A stretch of DNA of 19,778 nucleotides from positions 1 to 19,778 of IMG/VR virus record IMGVR_UViG_3300028988_000065; one strand, given 5' to 3'. The stretch is from a virus (Duplodnaviria; Heunggongvirae; Uroviricota; Caudoviricetes). Positions 1,502 to 18,247 of the stretch are shown piece after piece; within the stretch, counting starts at the first letter, position 1; each line of letters starts with the position of its first letter. Below the pieces are notes generated by a model. It had not been told where the DNA came from, did not search any database, and saw nothing but the letters and a program-made list of their open reading frames with translations. The position numbers and the translations under genes were made by a program.

Positions 1502-2379
1502 ACAGCGAATCAGATCAAATAAAACGCACATTTGTTAACATTTACACAAAGTCTGCGTGGGATATTCTGAAAGAATATCCATAATGTGGAGAGAATCTAT
1601 TGAAGTGCATGGTGCCGGGTGCCTCCCGGTGAACAAAATGTTCGTGATACCTGTCGGCGACAGAAAAGGTTAATGGTATCACCCCACCGCACAGGGGGAT
1701 TCACCATGCAGGAGTTTTCTTAGCAAACTCACTGCGCGCCCGGCAACTCCCAACCACATAAAATGCGGAGTTTGTGGCATTTATGCATATAACTCGCAGG
1801 AATTATCTTAAAAAACTGATGTCGATCCGGATTAAAAAGAAGCAGGTCATCATCAGATGACTGGAAAAAAGGAAAACAAAAAATACTCATCATACAGTTT
1901 TGATTGCAGGGATGAGCCTGCTATGCACAATATGCAGAATATAAGCAAGATAAAAATATGCAGGCATATTATTTCGGATTTTGTTATTAACACAACCTTT
2001 TTAATAATCATTTGGCATACAATAAACCAGCCCAGAAAGAACCGCCTAAACAGGCGGTTGGTCAATACAAAGGATGCTTCGTCTTTATTATAGTAATCTG
2101 AGGCGTCGGGTGTCTTGTATCAGACAACATATTGTCCCGCTAAACAGCGAATTACAAACCACCCTGCAATGATCTCTCATCTCATTTTATATGAGTTGAC
2201 GACATCAGGATAACGCATCATCAGCCCCTGCCAAGAAATATCAAAACTCCCGCCAGCAATGTGTTATCACAATATTGTAAAAAAAACACAGCACCGAAAC
2301 TATAACTGGTCTCTGTTATAATTTGGAGCAGAAAGACCAGTTGCCCAACTAGCAGCATTCTCCCCTGCTTTCCTGACGT

Positions 2380-3030: not shown

Positions 3031-3317
3031 AAATGACCTTTCTTTCTCCAGATTTCTTGTGTGCGAAAAACCCCTTCAGCATGCATCAGGCGCAATTCTT
3101 CTTTGGTGTAATCGCTGGTTTTTACCCGCCCGTCGATTAGATCGTGGCATGAGCTACAGGCTATCGCCGCCTGCATATCGTGTGGTTTTGTCGCTGTTCC
3201 GCACGTCCCCGCCAGCCTGTAATGCGCCAGCACAGAGGTTTCGGGATTGTGATTGCAGTAGCCAGGGATTCTGATCTGGCACATCTGGCCTTTAGCCGCT
3301 TTACGTAAATTCACCAT
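3027..3317 (-). CDS. YbcO-like nin-region protein (DUF1364, putative Zn-binding nuclease), 96 aa
   Basis: MVNLRKAAKGQMCQIRIPGYCNHNPETSVLAHYRLAGTCGTATKPHDMQAAIACSSCHDLIDGR matches the conserved pattern of DLP12 YbcO (LRKAARG..C..RIPG.CN.NPETSVLAH.RL.G.CG..KP.D...IACS.CHD.ID), recalled from memory. Confidence 0.75.
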   Translation of the reverse strand: MVNLRKAAKGQMCQIRIPGYCNHNPETSVLAHYRLAGTCGTATKPHDMQAAIACSSCHDLIDGRVKTSDYTKEELRLMHAEGVFRTQEIWRKKGHL

Positions 3318-3916
3318 TACGCAAACTCCAGTAGTTGTGCGGCCACATTTTCAACTTCCTCCTGAGAGGAGAATTTACGGAACAGAATCCAGTTCCACAG
3401 CACATTCAGTACAGATTTATAAACCTGCTGAAACTCGACTTCGTCCATATTCGCAAAAGCGATGGATTTTGCCCGACGCCCACGGCTACCGTCCGGATAA
3501 ATATGCTCGGTGTAAAATCCGGCCTGAATGGTTACCCACTCGCGGAAAGCCTCAAACGACTTTAGCAACGCCGTATCCCGGGTTCTACGAGTCGCAACGG
3601 TGTTAAGGTATTGCTCTGCGGCATCACTCAGGGCTGGCGTGTGTTCCCGACCAACTGATTCGCACAGGTAATCAACGAAACCAGACAGCAGTTCTCGTTC
3701 GCGAGGCGTGATCGCCCCACCGACCGGAGTCCAGTAATCGAATCCCAGTTGCAGGAGTTTGAAAAAACGCTTGTGGAATGCGTAGTTACGCACACGCTTA
3801 AAGTCTGCGTGTATCCACTCACCTATTTTGATTTGATGCAGAAAATCGCAACTCTCCGGCGTCGCCGGGAGAAGTAAACCAGAAGAAGTTTGTTTGACCA
3901 GTTGTATATGCGCCAT
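3317..3916 (-). CDS. Conserved lambdoid nin-region protein, DUF1367-like (family assignment tentative), 199 aa
   Basis: Long ORF, with its stop overlapping the start of the next gene (TAATG). Size and position match the roughly 200-aa phage DUF1367 family; the assignment is from memory only. Confidence 0.6.
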   Translation of the reverse strand: MAHIQLVKQTSSGLLLPATPESCDFLHQIKIGEWIHADFKRVRNYAFHKRFFKLLQLGFDYWTPVGGAITPRERELLSGFVDYLCESVGREHTPALSDAAEQYLNTVATRRTRDTALLKSFEAFREWVTIQAGFYTEHIYPDGSRGRRAKSIAFANMDEVEFQQVYKSVLNVLWNWILFRKFSSQEEVENVAAQLLEFA

Positions 3917-4189
3917 TTCTCAATCTCTCGATGGCGCAGTGCAGCAGATGCCAGTTGTTCAGGCTGACGTATAAAGTATAAATAAACTGGTTCCAGTGTA
4001 AAGCCCCCACCTTAATGGAATAAAAACCAAACAACAGATTGCTGGGATACAAACAACGCTTATTATTAAAAGCGGTTAAACAAATTAAATTTTAATGTTA
4101 TGCAAATTTGTCAGATCACCATAATATCTCATTTGAAAACCGCTGAAATAACAACCCTATCAGGGTTAATCATATTAAGGTGAGTAAAT

Positions 4190-4276
4190 ATGGAAAACAA
4201 CAAATCTGCACATTACGTTCCTTTTTTATCTGTAATACTTTTTGTTTTATGCTGTGCGTGGGCATTATTTTTATAA
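4190..4276 (+). CDS. Possible 28-aa hydrophobic single-TM peptide (MENNKSAHYVPFLSVILFVLCCAWALFL)
   Basis: ATG preceded by AAGGTGAG RBS at 6-nt spacing. Polar N-terminus followed by a 19-residue hydrophobic stretch. Lies on the opposite strand to its neighbours in AT-rich cargo DNA. It is below the ORF-track size cutoff and I found no recognisable promoter. Confidence 0.3.
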   Translation: MENNKSAHYVPFLSVILFVLCCAWALFL

Positions 4277-4357
4277 AAATATTTACAGATGAAGTAAACC
4301 CGCCAATCAGGTTAACTGTGGCTGCGTTGAGGATGCATAATACATCAGAGGTTGCGG

Positions 4358-4367
4358 GGATTTCTCC
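4358..4367. repeat. Target-site duplication (left copy) of the IS186 insertion, GGATTTCTCC
   Basis: The same 10 bp recurs at 5707-5716, directly abutting the IS terminal inverted repeats. Confidence 0.8.
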
Positions 4368-5706
4368 CATAAGCGCTAACTTAAGGGTTGTGGTATTACG
4401 CCTGATATGATTTAACGTGCCGATGAATTACTCTCACGATAACTGGTCAGCAATTCTGGCCCATATTGGTAAGCCCGAAGAACTGGATACTTCGGCACGT
4501 AATGCCGGGGCTCTAACCCGCCGCCGCGAAATTCGTGATGCTGCAACTCTGCTACGTCTGGGGCTGGCTTACGGCCCCGGGGGGATGTCATTACGTGAAG
4601 TCACTGCATGGGCTCAGCTCCATGACGTTGCAACATTATCTGACGTGGCTCTCCTGAAGCGGCTGCGGAATGCCGCCGACTGGTTTGGCATACTTGCCGC
4701 ACAAACACTTGCTGTACGCGCCGCAGTTACGGGTTGTACAAGCGGAAAGAGATTGCGTCTTGTCGATGGAACAGCAATCAGTGCGCCCGGGGGCGGCAGC
4801 GCTGAATGGCGACTACATATGGGATATGATCCTCATACCTGTCAGTTCACTGATTTTGAGCTAACCGACAGCAGAGACGCTGAACGGCTGGACCGATTTG
4901 CGCAAACGGCAGACGAGATACGCATTGCTGACCGGGGATTCGGTTCGCGTCCCGAATGTATCCGCTCACTTGCTTTTGGAGAAGCTGATTATATCGTCCG
5001 GGTTCACTGGCGAGGATTGCGCTGGTTAACTGCAGAAGGAATGCGCTTTGACATGATGGGTTTTCTGCGCGGGCTGGATTGCGGTAAGAACGGTGAAACC
5101 ACTGTAATGATAGGCAATTCAGGTAATAAAAAAGCCGGAGCTCCCTTTCCGGCACGTCTCATTGCCGTATCACTTCCTCCCGAAAAAGCATTAATCAGTA
5201 AAACCCGACTGCTCAGCGAGAATCGTCGAAAAGGACGAGTAGTTCAGGCGGAAACGCTGGAAGCAGCGGGCCATGTGCTATTGCTAACATCATTACCGGA
5301 AGATGAATATTCAGCAGAGCAAGTGGCTGATTGTTACCGTCTGCGATGGCAAATTGAACTGGCTTTTAAGCGGCTCAAAAGTTTGCTGCACCTGGATGCT
5401 TTGCGTGCAAAGGAACCTGAACTCGCGAAAGCGTGGATATTTGCTAATCTACTCGCCGCATTTTTAATTGACGACATAATCCAGCCATCGCTGGATTTCC
5501 CCCCCAGAAGTGCCGGATCCGAAAAGAAGAACTAACTCGTTGTGGAGAATAACAAAAATGGTCATCTGGAGCTTACAGGTGGCCATTCGTGGGACAGTAT
5601 CCCTGACAGCCTACAAAACGCAATTGAAGAACGCGAGGCATCGTCTTAACGAGGCACCGAGGCGTCGCATTCTTCAGATGGTTCAACCCTTAAGTTAGCG
5701 CTTATG
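4368..5706 (+). mobile_element. IS186 (IS4 family) insertion sequence, about 1.34 kb, apparently intact
   Basis: Terminal inverted repeats CATAAGCGCTAACTTAAGGGTTG (4368-4390) and its reverse complement (5684-5706). Single transposase ORF. Flanked by a 10-bp direct repeat. Confidence 0.9.
4423..5535 (+). CDS. insL: IS186 transposase (DDE, IS4 family), 370 aa
   Basis: Translation MNYSHDNWSAILAHIGKPEELDTSARNAG...YRLRWQIELAFKRLKS matches IS186 InsL as I recall it, including the IS4-family Y-R-E-K signature region. Confidence 0.9.
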   Translation: MNYSHDNWSAILAHIGKPEELDTSARNAGALTRRREIRDAATLLRLGLAYGPGGMSLREVTAWAQLHDVATLSDVALLKRLRNAADWFGILAAQTLAVRAAVTGCTSGKRLRLVDGTAISAPGGGSAEWRLHMGYDPHTCQFTDFELTDSRDAERLDRFAQTADEIRIADRGFGSRPECIRSLAFGEADYIVRVHWRGLRWLTAEGMRFDMMGFLRGLDCGKNGETTVMIGNSGNKKAGAPFPARLIAVSLPPEKALISKTRLLSENRRKGRVVQAETLEAAGHVLLLTSLPEDEYSAEQVADCYRLRWQIELAFKRLKSLLHLDALRAKEPELAKAWIFANLLAAFLIDDIIQPSLDFPPRSAGSEKKN

Positions 5707-5716
5707 GGATTTCTCC
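5707..5716. repeat. Target-site duplication (right copy) of the IS186 insertion
   Basis: GGATTTCTCC, identical to 4358-4367. Confidence 0.8.
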
Positions 5717-5912
5717 CCGCTGGTCCTCTTACTCCCCAAGTTCGTAAGCTGTGAAGACAGCGACCTCCGTCTGGTCGGTTCGGATTCGTACCTCGCAGAG
5801 GTCTTTCCTTGCAACCTGCACCGTCATAATAACGGTAAATGTTGAATCGTTCGTAAATTAATCTATACAGATTATTATATAGCTCTCATTACGATTTTGA
5901 TTACTCTCACTT

Positions 5913-5953: not shown

Positions 5954-8023
5954 TTACTTACATTTATTATTTAAATAGACCCTTATGTACTGATCGAGCA
6001 GTTTACCTAATTGTTTATTAACTTCGTCATGTTTTTGCGGGCTTCTCATTTTTGACAGATGCCTTTCAAGGAACTTAGAGGGTAACTTCACAACTAATTT
6101 ATTATGATTATCATAAATTTCTTTTACCCACGTAAGCTCTTTATGTTTTTCTAAATTCTCTGTGTGATCTCTATTTATGATAAAAGCTATCCGCCCATAG
6201 TCTTTAAACAAATAGGAATTTACCTGTCTATATTCTGCAGCACCTAATGTTTTATAGTTTTTCACTTCAAAAACAACTTGCCGTGTCTGATAATCTGTCA
6301 GAATTCTCTTCCAAACTGGAGTGTCAGCTATATTTGTCGCTATAATATCTCTTTGCTGCAACCCATTTTTATTGGGATGCAACTCAATGTTCGTTAAATT
6401 CGTAGCAAATAGTAACTTTATAGTTTTGAGCGCCCATGCTTCAAAATCGACAGCACCTTCAGGTCCTTCAGGTATATTATGTAGTTCTTGGAGCAACGAA
6501 CCGATTCGTTGTTTCCTCTGCTCTTCGGAAACAGAGCTGACCTCAATATCATATTCATCATGAATATCATCAGCAGCATCGGGAGTCATCTCTGATTCAT
6601 GAACACTTAATGCTAGCCAGTAGCATGGATGCAATAGCAATTTTGAATCTGGTGTAAATTCTTTTTCAGGTTCCTTACCGTCATGGCAAAATACATATGA
6701 AGATGACTGCTGGTTATACAACCCAATAAATCCAACACTGTAAAGTCGTTGAATCACCTGGATTGGCCCTTCAAAAAGAAGTAAATCCTGCATTTTCATC
6801 TTGTCAATAACGCCATTGAGATCAAGGGCATATTGTATCTTAGATGACGCTTCAGAAACACTGTAGTAAGGTTTGCTATTAGCAAATTGCGATGTAAATA
6901 TATCTAATGCAGGAAATACATTCTCATATTCTTTTAACAAATCATTGAGTCTATTTTGTGAAATAGTATTCGCTGTTGCTTGAATGTCATCAATGACAAT
7001 ACGATTACGATCATGTGTGTTTGCTCGCAAGAATGCATTATTTAACAAAACCAAAATATCTCTTGGCCTATATAGAGTCAGTTTCAATGTTTCTTTAAAA
7101 CCGGTATTAGACTGTAATTCATTTGCGGTGTAAGCATTCCACACCCTCGTGTTGTTCTCAATGGTTGAGTTAAAAGCGACCCTCATTCTATTGCATACAA
7201 GATTAAACAAGTTATATTCATCCCAATGTAATCTCAGTACTTGCCCTTCAATATTTCGAGTAAAATCAGGGTCCATTTTTGATATGGCTCGATGAATATT
7301 ATCTCTAACAAATGCAAAGGCAATAACCTTTTCATTCATATTTTGTTTTATATCAATCACAGCCTGAATGAAACCATCAACTATTGCAACACCAAGATTA
7401 TCCGGTGTATAGCCTTCATCAAGCCTATCAGCAAAAATAACAAATTGATTATTTGACTTCGAAATTGCTTCTTCTATCACCTCTTCCAATAAGTCAAGTT
7501 CAAATTTATCGGATAATTCGGCTATTCTTGTAGCTGGTTTTATATTTTTGTTATCATCGAGAATAGCGTTCAATTTTTTTCTTATTTTGCTACTTATATT
7601 TTGTCTCTTCGGTCCCCAAGATAATAAATGCGACTCTACACTTTTGTAGTCAAGATCGTTTTTCATCTTGTAATGACTTGCGATCTCAGAAAGCAGCTCC
7701 ATATAAATAGCATATCGCCATGCTAACTTGCTACCGGCTTTTATATGTAAGTAATTTTCACCAAATAAAGAAATAACATCCCTTAATCCAATAATTTGTT
7801 CTTCAACCGGACTAATAGTCATCACATAGGTTTTTGGCTTAGCATGCCAATGTTTGGAAAGCATATGCACCAGAGCACTTTTTCCTGTTCCTCTGCGGCC
7901 AACAATGATGCATCGATCGTAGGATTCGAGAAGAGCTTTATAATCAGTTGTTTGCCAAAATGAAGCTTCCAACATCTTTTCGTCATGTTCAGCTCGGATA
8001 TCCCCAAGAATATTACCTTTCAT
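5954..8023 (-). CDS. Uncharacterised 689-aa P-loop NTPase (AAA+/Arch-ATPase-like) fused to a C-terminal PD-(D/E)xK / RecB-like nuclease-type domain; candidate defence protein
   Basis: Walker A IIVGRRGTGKSAL (aa 39-51). Walker B-like QFVIFADRLDE (aa 193-203). C-terminal motifs RD559II ... FE576VK578 ... Q600VNSY604 (D / ExK / QxxxY). AAGGA RBS 6 nt upstream of the ATG. Visibly AT-rich relative to the flanking prophage genes. Own terminator. Confidence 0.85.
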   Translation of the reverse strand: MKGNILGDIRAEHDEKMLEASFWQTTDYKALLESYDRCIIVGRRGTGKSALVHMLSKHWHAKPKTYVMTISPVEEQIIGLRDVISLFGENYLHIKAGSKLAWRYAIYMELLSEIASHYKMKNDLDYKSVESHLLSWGPKRQNISSKIRKKLNAILDDNKNIKPATRIAELSDKFELDLLEEVIEEAISKSNNQFVIFADRLDEGYTPDNLGVAIVDGFIQAVIDIKQNMNEKVIAFAFVRDNIHRAISKMDPDFTRNIEGQVLRLHWDEYNLFNLVCNRMRVAFNSTIENNTRVWNAYTANELQSNTGFKETLKLTLYRPRDILVLLNNAFLRANTHDRNRIVIDDIQATANTISQNRLNDLLKEYENVFPALDIFTSQFANSKPYYSVSEASSKIQYALDLNGVIDKMKMQDLLLFEGPIQVIQRLYSVGFIGLYNQQSSSYVFCHDGKEPEKEFTPDSKLLLHPCYWLALSVHESEMTPDAADDIHDEYDIEVSSVSEEQRKQRIGSLLQELHNIPEGPEGAVDFEAWALKTIKLLFATNLTNIELHPNKNGLQQRDIIATNIADTPVWKRILTDYQTRQVVFEVKNYKTLGAAEYRQVNSYLFKDYGRIAFIINRDHTENLEKHKELTWVKEIYDNHNKLVVKLPSKFLERHLSKMRSPQKHDEVNKQLGKLLDQYIRVYLNNKCK

Positions 8024-17850: not shown

Positions 17851-18045
17851 ATGAGATATGACAATGTTAAACCATGTCCATTTTGTGGTTGTCCATCAGT
17901 AACGGTGAAAGCCATTTCAGGATATTACCGAGCGAAGTGTAACGGATGCGAATCCCGAACCGGTTATGGTGGAAGTGAAAAAGAAGCACTCGAAAGATGG
18001 AATAAACGAACCACTGGAAATAATAATGGAGGTGTTCATGTATAA
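17851..18045 (+). CDS. ralR: RalR (restriction alleviation; reported type I toxin/DNase), 64 aa
   Basis: Translation MRYDNVKPCPFCGCPSVTVKAISGYYRAKCNGCESRTGYGGSEKEALERWNKRTTGNNNGGVHV. Confidence 0.85.
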   Translation: MRYDNVKPCPFCGCPSVTVKAISGYYRAKCNGCESRTGYGGSEKEALERWNKRTTGNNNGGVHV

Positions 18046-18247
18046 AATTACCGCCACTATTGAAAAGGAAGGTGGCACTCCTACTAACTGGACAAGATAT
18101 TCAAAATCTAAACTAACGAAATCAGAATGCGAAAAAATGCTCTCAGGTAAAAAAGAAGCAGGCGTTTCCAGAGAGCAGAAAGTAAAACTGATAAATTTTA
18201 ATTGCGAGAAACTTCAGTCCTCGAGAATTGCATTGTATTCAAATTAA
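18038..18247 (+). CDS. ydaC: YdaC, 69 aa
   Basis: GGAGG RBS. The ATG overlaps the 3' end of ralR. Translation MYKITATIEKEGGTPTNWTRYSKSKLTKSECEKMLSGKKEAG... Confidence 0.75.
   Translation: MYKITATIEKEGGTPTNWTRYSKSKLTKSECEKMLSGKKEAGVSREQKVKLINFNCEKLQSSRIALYSN

What the first reader, a model, noticed from the sequence alone, without database searches (positions are those of the whole stretch)
4190..4276. Possible 28-aa hydrophobic peptide gene on the opposite strand, next to the IS186 insertion
A short ORF (MENNKSAHYVPFLSVILFVLCCAWALFL) with a good RBS encodes a polar head plus a single predicted TM helix, the architecture of type I toxins and small membrane regulators. It is antisense to the surrounding operon direction and sits in AT-rich cargo DNA. 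The pre-insertion sequence just downstream forms a GC hairpin (GCGGGGA-TTTC-TCCCCGC), which IS186 has split. I found no convincing promoter and cannot match the peptide to a known toxin family from memory, so this is a lead only.
Basis: inference. Interest (0 to 1): 0.45.

Follow-up and report, generated by a model that had tools for sequence, protein, structure and literature searches.

The report
Conserved 28-residue prophage membrane peptide
An unannotated 28-codon gene for a tiny membrane-spanning peptide sits in a small AT-rich cassette of Rac/Qin-type prophages in about one fifth of complete E. coli genomes. Its reading frame has been kept intact by selection, but what it does, and whether it is a toxin, is unknown.

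Summary
The ORF at 4190-4276 (+) is real, with an AGGTGA Shine-Dalgarno 6 nt upstream. Comparative evidence says it is probably a gene.

- **Frequency:** the SD-to-stop segment occurs in 1176 of 5426 complete E. coli genomes and was unannotated in every record examined.
- **Integrity:** all 188 complete copies in fetched loci keep exactly 28 codons, across 21 nucleotide alleles.
- **Frame:** it is the only one of six frames open in all four main alleles.
- **Selection:** the two deep alleles differ at 18 of 84 nt with no indel. dS is 0.71, dN 0.17, dN/dS 0.24 (Fisher p 0.008), and the replacements keep the segment hydrophobic.
- **Cassette:** homology between alleles ends at the stop codon. 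A ~225-bp cassette at 28% GC recurs in at least 4 left and 9 right contexts, as a phage moron would.

No known protein or RNA family matches. No promoter is convincing, and no antisense promoter is conserved. The type I toxin idea is therefore untested and not favoured.

The GC hairpin split by IS186 is not part of this gene. It is the hairpin directly 3' of a truncated hok/gef gene on the minus strand, the position IS186 also occupies downstream of gef/hokC in K-12. This is a solid but ordinary lead.

The parts
4059..4114 (+). Conserved AT-rich block at the left edge of the cassette, a candidate promoter region. It contains TTATTATTAAAA and AAATTAAATTTTAATGTTATGCAA. The weak sigma70-like candidates are TTATTA(4063-4068)-17-TAAATT(4086-4091) and, in A-type alleles only, TTGCTG(4039-4044)-16-TATTAT(4061-4066).
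   Evidence: The block is 77% identical between alleles A and B with no gaps, while both flanks are about 55%. Its core is invariant in 47 unique upstream sequences. The left homology boundary falls at -131 in L208 and -145 in L049. The PWM scan gives only weak promoters, and the consensus scan finds no plus-strand promoter here.
4115..4176 (+). Variable leader, including the hairpin AACCCT-ATC-AGGGTT at 4153-4167. Read on the minus strand, the same hairpin is a terminator-like site at 4168..4152.
   Evidence: The leader is 55% identical between alleles, with indels. The hairpin is kept, with compensatory C-G to T-A changes, in many A-type variants. It is absent from the L100-type and B alleles.
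4177..4184 (+). Shine-Dalgarno AAGGTGAG (core AGGTGA, 6 nt from the ATG).
   Evidence: TTAAGGTG is conserved in alleles A and B inside an otherwise diverged leader. It is weakened to AAAGTGAG in the L100-type allele.
4190..4276 (+). 28-codon ORF, MENNKSAHYVPFLSVILFVLCCAWALFL. It has a polar N-terminal 11 residues and a 17-residue hydrophobic segment running to the C-terminus.
   Evidence: It is intact in 188 of 188 complete copies, with 21 nucleotide alleles. dN/dS is 0.21-0.41, and it is the only frame open in all four main alleles.
4266..4281 (.). Perfect 16-nt AT palindrome TATTTTTATAAAAATA. It overlaps the stop codon and marks the right homology breakpoint of the cassette.
   Evidence: Read. 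Homology between alleles ends here.
4297..4313 (-). Degenerate remnant of the hok mRNA intrinsic terminator (AACCCG-CCAAT-CAGGTT), 21 nt after the small ORF stop. In loci with an intact hok it reads AACCCGCCGAAGCGGGTT, with its T-tract on the minus strand.
4354..4367 (-). Left half of the GC hairpin GCGGGGATTTCTCCCCGC. The hairpin is the hok 3' UTR element lying directly after the hok stop codon. The right half is at 5707-5720.
   Evidence: The empty site is in L001. The same hairpin follows intact hok genes and K-12 hokD.
4368..5706 (+). IS186 (IS4 family; PGAP labels it an 'IS4-like element IS421 family transposase'). It is 1339 bp with 23-bp terminal inverted repeats, a transposase ORF at 4417-5535, and a target duplication GGATTTCTCC at 4358-4367 and 5707-5716.
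   Evidence: The same junction is present in 43 complete genomes.
5729..5836 (-). hok/gef pseudogene that retains only the C-terminal part (…RKDLCEVRIRTDQTEVAVFTAYELGE). The transmembrane N-terminus is deleted.
   Evidence: PGAP annotation in L001. Pfam HOK_GEF, E = 4.2e-14, profile positions 12-42 of 42. Translation.
3975..4002 (-). Conserved sigma70-like promoter TTTACA-16-TATACT, about 60 nt upstream of DUF1367 and divergent from the small-ORF cassette.
   Evidence: It is the top-scoring site in every allele that has DUF1367 as its left neighbour.

Best explanation
The ORF is a genuine, so far unannotated gene for a 28-residue single-pass inner-membrane peptide. It is carried as a ~225-bp AT-rich accessory cassette (a moron) in Rac- and Qin-type lambdoid prophages of Escherichia.

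**Location.** The cassette occupies the variable slot between the replication/cargo region and the nin/Q module. There it is usually convergent with a hok gene, and its stop codon lies 21 nt from the hok terminator hairpin.

**Shown**
- The reading frame, its length, its start and stop codons and the hydrophobic character of residues 12-28 are maintained by purifying selection.
- The cassette moves between genomic contexts as a unit whose right edge is the stop codon.

**Inferred**
- It is transcribed rightwards from the conserved AT-rich block about 90-130 nt upstream.
- Because it points against the repressed early operon, it is probably made in the lysogen.
- The peptide inserts tail-first, with the N-terminus in the cytoplasm.
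- It acts by contact with a membrane protein or with the bilayer itself. That would make it a small membrane modulator or exclusion factor rather than an antisense-controlled toxin.
For: **Spread and integrity**
- The SD-to-stop segment is present in 1176 of 5426 complete E. coli genomes. It is also present in Shigella and E. ruysiae.
- It has exactly 28 codons in 60 of 60 loci fetched through the neighbouring DUF1367 gene.
- All 188 complete blastn-detected copies are intact, across 21 nucleotide alleles.

**Selection on this frame**
- It is the only frame of six without a stop in any of the four main alleles.
- A versus B: 18 of 84 nt differ with 0 indels; dS 0.71, dN 0.17, dN/dS 0.24; Fisher p = 0.0076.
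- Other allele pairs give dN/dS of 0.21-0.41.
- Random placement of 18 substitutions keeps start, stop and frame in 8.7% of trials. It also keeps the hydrophobic segment free of polar residues in 2.4%. It also reaches the observed hydrophobicity in 0.5%.

**Conservation profile**
- Identity between A and B runs in islands. The AT block is 77% and the leader 55% with indels. SD-to-ATG is 79% and the ORF 79% without indels. Identity is 19% after the stop.

**Cassette behaviour**
- At least 4 left and 9 right flanking contexts.
- Minimal homology runs from -131/-145 to +87/+91.
- GC is 27.9% against 50% for the neighbouring gene.
- Related prophages have other cargo in the same slot: rem in K-12 Qin, or none.
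Against: - There is no transcript, ribosome-profiling or proteomic evidence for any strain that carries it. K-12 lacks the region.
- No plus-strand promoter passes the consensus scan, and PWM candidates are weak.
- The Shine-Dalgarno is weakened to AAAGTGAG in the allele that encodes the most frequent peptide variant.
- Effective evolutionary depth is only two or three deep lineages within one genus, so the statistics rest mainly on one deep comparison.
- One antisense register shows a similarly low pN/pS, as expected when wobble positions coincide, although that frame carries stops.
- No syntenic counterpart exists in Salmonella, Citrobacter, Pantoea, Erwinia or Serratia prophages.
- An IS1 insertion inside the ORF is tolerated in one strain.
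Confidence: 0.55

Rival explanations
1. It is the toxin of a new type I toxin-antitoxin pair. On this reading the 28-residue hydrophobic peptide damages the inner membrane when made. A cis-encoded antisense RNA, or read-through of the convergent hok or early-operon transcript, keeps its mRNA silent.
For: - Its size and shape resemble ShoB and Ibs toxins: a polar head and a hydrophobic segment running to the C-terminus (own knowledge of those families; peptide).
- The leader is long, about 90 nt, and predicted to pair with the Shine-Dalgarno and AUG in allele A.
- In A-type alleles a minus-strand promoter-like site TTTCCA-16-TATGAT (4196..4169) overlaps the start codon, and a minus-strand terminator-like hairpin lies at 4168..4152.
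- It lies in a prophage next to another type I toxin gene, hok.
Against: - No match to any toxin model in Pfam, NCBIfam or PADLOC, and no Rfam antitoxin RNA.
- The minus-strand promoter-like sites sit at different positions in alleles A and B.
- The leader hairpin is missing from the L100-type and B alleles.
- Shine-Dalgarno pairing is not significantly stronger than in shuffled leaders (p 0.09 and 0.21).
- One copy per genome at the median, with no tandem copies.
Confidence: 0.15
2. The ORF is not translated. The conservation instead reflects non-coding functions of this intergenic DNA for the minus-strand nin/Q operon, such as tR2-like terminators, a promoter or a protein-binding site. The open frame is then a by-product.
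For: - Minus-strand terminator-like hairpins lie at 4168..4152 and 4074..4057. A strong minus-strand promoter lies at 4002..3975.
- The minus-strand RNA across the pre-insertion region folds better than all 200 shuffles (z = -3.7).
- No convincing plus-strand promoter was found.
- The most invariant sequence is the AT block, not the ORF.
Against: - All of those hairpins and promoters lie outside the ORF, and the hairpins are not conserved between alleles.
- Non-coding constraint does not explain the excess of synonymous change, or the lack of indels in 84 nt beside an indel-rich leader. Nor does it explain the conservative hydrophobic replacements, or that this is the only frame open in all alleles.
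- The cassette recurs away from DUF1367 (L049, L208), so it is not tied to that operon.
Confidence: 0.2
3. It is the leftover signal peptide of a truncated prophage lipoprotein gene, cut at a recombination junction.
For: - One rare allele reads ...ILFAGC..., which resembles a lipobox.
- The only weak HMM hits are to lipoprotein signal regions: Lp6.6 at E = 0.21 and an Rz-like spanin phrog at E = 0.009.
- Homology ends at the stop codon.
Against: - Most alleles, including the window's (FVLCC), have L, F or C at the -1 position, so they have no lipobox.
- The stop codon and the C-terminal WALFL are shared by both deep alleles, so any truncation would predate their divergence. The frame stayed intact afterwards.
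- No longer relative was found by tblastn in phages or plasmids.
Confidence: 0.03

Closest known systems
Short type I toxins of E. coli (ShoB 26 aa, Ibs 18-19 aa, DinQ 27 aa, TisB 29 aa, ZorO 29 aa)
   Same: The length is similar. The architecture is a polar head plus one hydrophobic helix running to or near the C-terminus. The gene is missed by annotation pipelines and has a long leader.
   Different: There is no sequence or HMM similarity. No conserved antisense RNA gene was found. The gene is not repeated in the genome, and toxicity is untested.
Small inner-membrane modulators (KdpF 29 aa, PmrR 29 aa, MgtS 31 aa, CydH 29 aa, AcrZ 49 aa)
   Same: It is a single-pass peptide of about 30 residues. 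Selection acts mainly on hydrophobicity plus a few fixed residues: H8, P11-F12, S14, C21 and W24.
   Different: Those are core-genome genes, usually next to or co-regulated with their partner. This one is prophage cargo with no fixed neighbour in its own orientation. No partner is known.
Phage morons (lambda bor and lom, HK97 and HK022 accessory genes)
   Same: It is present or absent between otherwise collinear prophages, and its GC content differs sharply from its neighbours. It is oriented against the early operon and sits in a recognised variable slot.
   Different: It is far smaller than the described morons. Its promoter is only a weak prediction. Its terminator is borrowed from the convergent neighbour rather than its own.
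hok/sok loci with a downstream IS186 (gef/hokC in E. coli K-12)
   Same: This comparison concerns the hairpin, not the peptide. IS186 is inserted just 3' of a hok reading frame, cutting it off from its 3' region (PMC3562002).
   Different: Here hok is already a pseudogene lacking its transmembrane half, so the insertion has no further effect on hok. In other strains the same insertion lies next to an intact hok.

Membership tests
Hok/Gef toxin family (Pfam PF01848) | The peptide matches the HOK_GEF profile. | tested here: not met
   The 28-aa peptide gave no Pfam hit at E <= 10 for three alleles. The neighbouring minus-strand remnant does match, at 4.2e-14.
Type I toxin-antitoxin system (generic) | Small hydrophobic membrane peptide of under 60 aa. 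| tested here: met
   28 aa, with residues 12-28 hydrophobic (mean Kyte-Doolittle 2.78) and free of polar residues in all alleles.
Type I toxin-antitoxin system (generic) | A conserved antisense or divergent small RNA gene, with its own promoter and terminator, complementary to the toxin mRNA. | tested here: inconclusive
   A-type alleles have minus-strand promoter-like and terminator-like sites. These are not conserved in position in B-type alleles. Rfam finds nothing, and no transcript data are available.
Type I toxin-antitoxin system (generic) | Growth arrest or killing when the peptide is over-expressed, relieved by the RNA. | not testable with these tools
   This needs an expression experiment.
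Known E. coli type I toxin families (Ldr, TisB, Ibs, ShoB, DinQ, ZorO) as modelled in Pfam and NCBIfam | Profile match to a family model. | tested here: not met
   NCBIfam gave only one chance-level hit, Lp6.6 at E = 0.21. Pfam gave none.
Phage moron | Present in some and absent from other otherwise homologous phage genomes, at a discrete insertion slot. | tested here: met
   About one third of loci with a closely related DUF1367 gene lack it, with homology ending 50-65 nt upstream of that gene. The same slot holds rem-like or other cargo elsewhere. The cassette itself recurs in at least 4 left and 9 right contexts.
Phage moron | Base composition distinct from the neighbouring phage genes. | tested here: met
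   27.9% GC, against 50% for DUF1367 and 44.6% for the window.
Phage moron | Own promoter and factor-independent terminator, allowing expression from the repressed prophage. | tested here: inconclusive
   The conserved AT block carries only weak sigma70-like hexamers. The downstream hairpin is the convergent gene's terminator. It has a plus-strand T-tract only in the L002-type context.
Bacterial lipoprotein signal peptide | Lipobox [LVI][ASTVI][GAS]C conserved across relatives. | tested here: not met
   Only the rare ...LFAGC... allele fits. The window allele is FVLCC, and other alleles have F, C or S at position -1.

The most novel reading that the evidence does not exclude
The cassette founds a new prophage-borne type I-like toxin family that is functionally coupled to hok. 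Its mRNA converges on the hok mRNA and ends at, or reads through, the hok terminator. The two transcripts would then be mutually antisense across the hok 3' fold-back region, and each would modulate activation of the other. On this reading, IS186 insertion into the hairpin between them uncouples the pair.
Probability: 0.1. Interest if true: 0.6.

Novelty: new member of a known kind. Interest (0 to 1): 0.4.

Why it matters
- **A missing family.** If translated, this is a widespread small-protein family, present in about 22% of complete E. coli genomes. It is missing from the ~15-billion-protein collection queried by exact sequence and from the four HMM libraries searched, and no annotation covers it in any genome record examined. 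At 87 nt it probably falls below the size cut-offs that gene callers use (own knowledge). It is also absent from K-12, where most small-protein discovery was done.
- **A test case.** It shows how comparative genomics of prophage cassettes can nominate small genes.
- **Function.** It would add a candidate lysogen-expressed membrane factor to Rac/Qin-type prophages.
- **Limits.** It does not bear on a long-standing open question, and small hydrophobic prophage ORFs are an expected class.

Tried and rejected
- **Family searches.** Pfam, NCBIfam and PHROGs were searched with three alleles, and PADLOC with the window allele. Only chance-level hits to lipoprotein signal regions appeared.
- **Database look-ups.** The search for homologous proteins refuses queries under 40 aa. 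Exact look-up of eight alleles among about 15 billion proteins found none.
- **Literature.** A full-text search for the peptide sequences found 0 papers. The supplements of the EHEC translatome paper and of Pro-SMP finder had no occurrence. The UPEC small-proteome preprint has no supplements held as text.
- **RNA families.** Rfam at gathering threshold on the window, and at E <= 1 on the pre-insertion locus, found nothing at this site.
- **More distant relatives.** tblastn in phages found only four E. coli phages, all with a full-length 28-codon match, plus chance hits. tblastn in the plasmid collection found only two multi-megabase E. coli records that are evidently chromosomes. Two degenerate pattern scans of IMG/VR returned essentially the same E. 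coli prophage loci.
- **Synteny.** The equivalent positions in Salmonella, Citrobacter, Pantoea, Erwinia and Serratia hold no comparable small hydrophobic ORF.
- **Shine-Dalgarno sequestration.** The SD is predicted paired in both alleles, but no more than in shuffled leaders, so I dropped it as evidence for a regulated toxin mRNA.
- **Lipoprotein remnant.** Rejected because the lipobox is not conserved.
- **Minus-strand 66-aa ORF (4170-4370).** Its ATG lies in the IS186 end, and the frame has stops in alleles B, C and D.
- **Plus-strand 76-aa GTG ORF (4180-4410).** It has stops in alleles B and C.
- **Metagenome scan.** Not run, because the viral scans were already saturated with near-identical E. 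coli prophage copies.

Full report
**Setting**

The window is a Rac-type lambdoid prophage of E. coli. The same DNA without IS186 lies next to trkG in strain FDAARGOS_497 (locus L001). There PGAP annotates, all on the minus strand, the following genes. They run from ydaT, ydaU and ydaV through a DUF1627 gene, a P-loop ATPase and a Hok/Gef pseudogene, then a 460-bp gap. Beyond the gap lie DUF1367, DUF1364 (YbcO), DUF1133 (Q-like) and the lysis genes. Pfam confirms these assignments in the window. Rfam finds RalA at 18044-18222. The finding lies in the unannotated gap.

**Observation**

The ORF at 4190-4276 (+) encodes MENNKSAHYVPFLSVILFVLCCAWALFL. AAGGTGAG is at 4177-4184, and an in-frame TGA at 4181-4183 excludes a longer form.

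IS186 occupies 4368-5706 with a 10-bp duplication GGATTTCTCC. The uninterrupted site reads GCGGGGATTTCTCCCCGC. The same junction occurs in 43 complete genomes.

**What the hairpin is**

- The minus-strand sequence at 5729-5836 matches Pfam HOK_GEF (E = 4.2e-14) over profile positions 12-42 of 42. It is therefore a hok gene that has lost its transmembrane half.
- Related prophages carry an intact mok/hok reading frame. In them the same GC hairpin follows the hok stop codon. About 40 nt further on lies a canonical minus-strand terminator, AACCCGCTTCGGCGGGTTTTTG.
- K-12 hokD in Qin has the same 3' region at 85% identity.
- The hairpin is thus a hok 3' UTR element. IS186 also sits downstream of gef/hokC in K-12, where it is thought to disrupt the fold-back element (PMC3562002).
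- In several fetched loci the same IS186 insertion lies beside an intact hok.

**Is the small ORF a gene?**

I collected homologous regions in three ways. The first was through the neighbouring DUF1367 protein in IMG/VR and in GTDB species genomes, which is unbiased with respect to the ORF. The second was degenerate DNA patterns. The third was BLAST in complete E. coli genomes.

- The SD-to-stop segment is present in 1176 of 5426 complete genomes, and 1173 of them carry at least 80% of it. The median is one copy per genome. None of the 40 rows sampled across the ranking has an annotated feature under the match.
- All 60 DUF1367-anchored loci that have it keep exactly 28 codons.
- A blastn sweep of every fetched locus found 188 intact copies, one cut by a contig end, and none disrupted.
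- One genome outside this set has IS1 inside the ORF.
- There are 21 nucleotide alleles. Segregating sites number 7, 9 and 17 at codon positions 1, 2 and 3.
- The two deep alleles are A, as in the window, and B (MENNKFAHLAPFLSVILFACCFIWALFL). They differ at 18 of 84 nt with no indel: dS 0.71, dN 0.17, dN/dS 0.24. Other pairs give 0.21-0.41.
- The synonymous excess is significant (Fisher p = 0.0076). Of the other five frames only the antisense register that shares wobble positions looks similar, and it contains stops.
- Only the proposed frame is open in all four main alleles.
- Replacements in the hydrophobic segment are V/A/T, L/F/C/G/S, C/F, A/V/I and L/V.
- The invariant residues are M1-E2-N3-N4, H8, P11-F12, S14, I16-L17-F18, C21, W24-A25 and F27-L28.
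- I simulated 18 random substitutions placed in allele A. Start, stop and frame survive in 8.7% of trials. The segment also stays free of polar residues in 2.4%. It also reaches the observed hydrophobicity in 0.5%.

**Cassette structure**

Identity between A and B runs in islands:

| Segment (relative to the ATG) | Identity | Gap columns |
|---|---|---|
| -189 to -132 | 54.5% | 9 |
| AT block, -131 to -76 | 77% | 0 |
| Rest of the leader, -75 to -15 | 55% | 2 |
| SD to ATG, -14 to -1 | 79% | 0 |
| ORF | 79% | 0 |
| After the stop, +87 to +150 | 19% | 26 |

- In two unrelated contexts, L208 and L049, homology to the window spans only -131/-145 to +87/+91.
- The unit recurs with at least 4 different left flanks and 9 different right flanks.
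- It is 27.9% GC beside a 50% GC gene.
- About one third of loci with a closely related DUF1367 gene lack it, and there homology stops 50-65 nt upstream of DUF1367.
- The same slot, between the hok terminator and the nin-type genes, holds a rem-like gene in other prophages and rem itself in K-12 Qin.
- K-12 Rac has lost the whole region. This explains why K-12 small-protein surveys never saw the ORF.
- This is the behaviour of a moron.

**Expression signals remain unresolved**

- The consensus scan finds no plus-strand promoter upstream of the ORF.
- A PWM scan gives only weak candidates in the invariant block. These are TTATTA-17-TAAATT (TACATT in allele B), and TTGCTG-16-TATTAT in A-type alleles only.
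- The Shine-Dalgarno is kept in A and B but is AAAGTGAG in the L100-type allele.
- The nearest downstream hairpin is the convergent hok terminator, and in the window it is degenerate. Only the L002-type context offers a symmetric bidirectional terminator.

**Type I toxin reading**

The architecture fits, but nothing else could be confirmed.

- No profile matches and no Rfam hit.
- The minus-strand promoter-like sites overlapping the start codon in A-type alleles are not at the same place in B-type alleles.
- The leader hairpin at 4153-4167 shows some compensatory change, but it is missing from two allele classes.
- Predicted pairing of the Shine-Dalgarno is not unusual against shuffled leaders.

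I therefore rank a plain small membrane protein above a toxin. No experiment has addressed either.

**Verdict**

- The coding interpretation is well supported by comparative evidence, at roughly three chances in four counting the toxin variant.
- The toxin interpretation is open but not favoured.
- The hairpin is reassigned to hok.
- The finding is a new family of a familiar kind, small hydrophobic prophage cargo, and is of moderate interest.

Noticed in passing
window 5729-5836 (-) and 5954-8023 (-): The hok/gef gene is truncated exactly where an AT-rich (35.5% GC) 689-aa P-loop ATPase begins. PGAP calls the ATPase 'Sll1717 family'. It has weak STAND/AAA Pfam hits and weak PADLOC PDC-M36A hits. 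It looks like a candidate defence cargo whose arrival deleted the hok 5' half together with mok and sok.
   Followed up: partly
window 4368-5706, and L009: IS186 occupies the identical site in the hok 3' hairpin in 43 complete genomes. It is also found there next to intact hok genes. This repeats the K-12 gef/hokC arrangement and suggests the GGGG-N-CCCC hairpin of hok 3' UTRs is a recurrent IS186 target.
   Followed up: partly
window 4266-4281: A perfect 16-nt AT palindrome, TATTTTTATAAAAATA, overlaps the small ORF stop codon. It coincides with the point where homology between cassette alleles ends, so it may be a recombination junction.
   Followed up: no
window 3975-4002 (-): A sigma70-like promoter, TTTACA-16-TATACT, lies about 60 nt upstream of DUF1367. 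It is conserved in all alleles that have this neighbour and is divergent from the small-ORF cassette. It would give the nin/Q-type genes a promoter independent of the early operon.
   Followed up: no
window 4059-4114: An invariant AT-rich block (TTATTATTAAAA ... AAATTAAATTTTAATGTTATGCAA) is more conserved than the ORF itself. It has no strong promoter on either strand, and its function is unexplained.
   Followed up: partly
window 18044-18222 (-) and 1553-1739 (-): Rfam gathering-level hits to RalA (the antitoxin RNA of the Rac RalR/RalA type I system) and to the sRNA STnc100.
   Followed up: no
L223 (E. coli PK8566) 700-1510: IS1 is inserted inside the small ORF after codon 8. This is the only disrupted copy examined, and it shows the gene is dispensable in that strain.
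   Followed up: yes
L222 (K-12 Qin) 3152-3775; L070, L077 and L079: In K-12 Qin and related prophages the slot beside the hok terminator holds rem or rem-like genes on the minus strand instead of the small-ORF cassette. This defines a variable cargo slot directly downstream of hok.
   Followed up: partly
B-type loci (e.g. L003, about 75-150 nt after the small ORF stop): A 13-bp inverted repeat, AGGATGCCTTTAC ... GTAAAGGCATCCT, with a loop of about 40 nt follows the B-type cassette. Its function is unknown.
   Followed up: no
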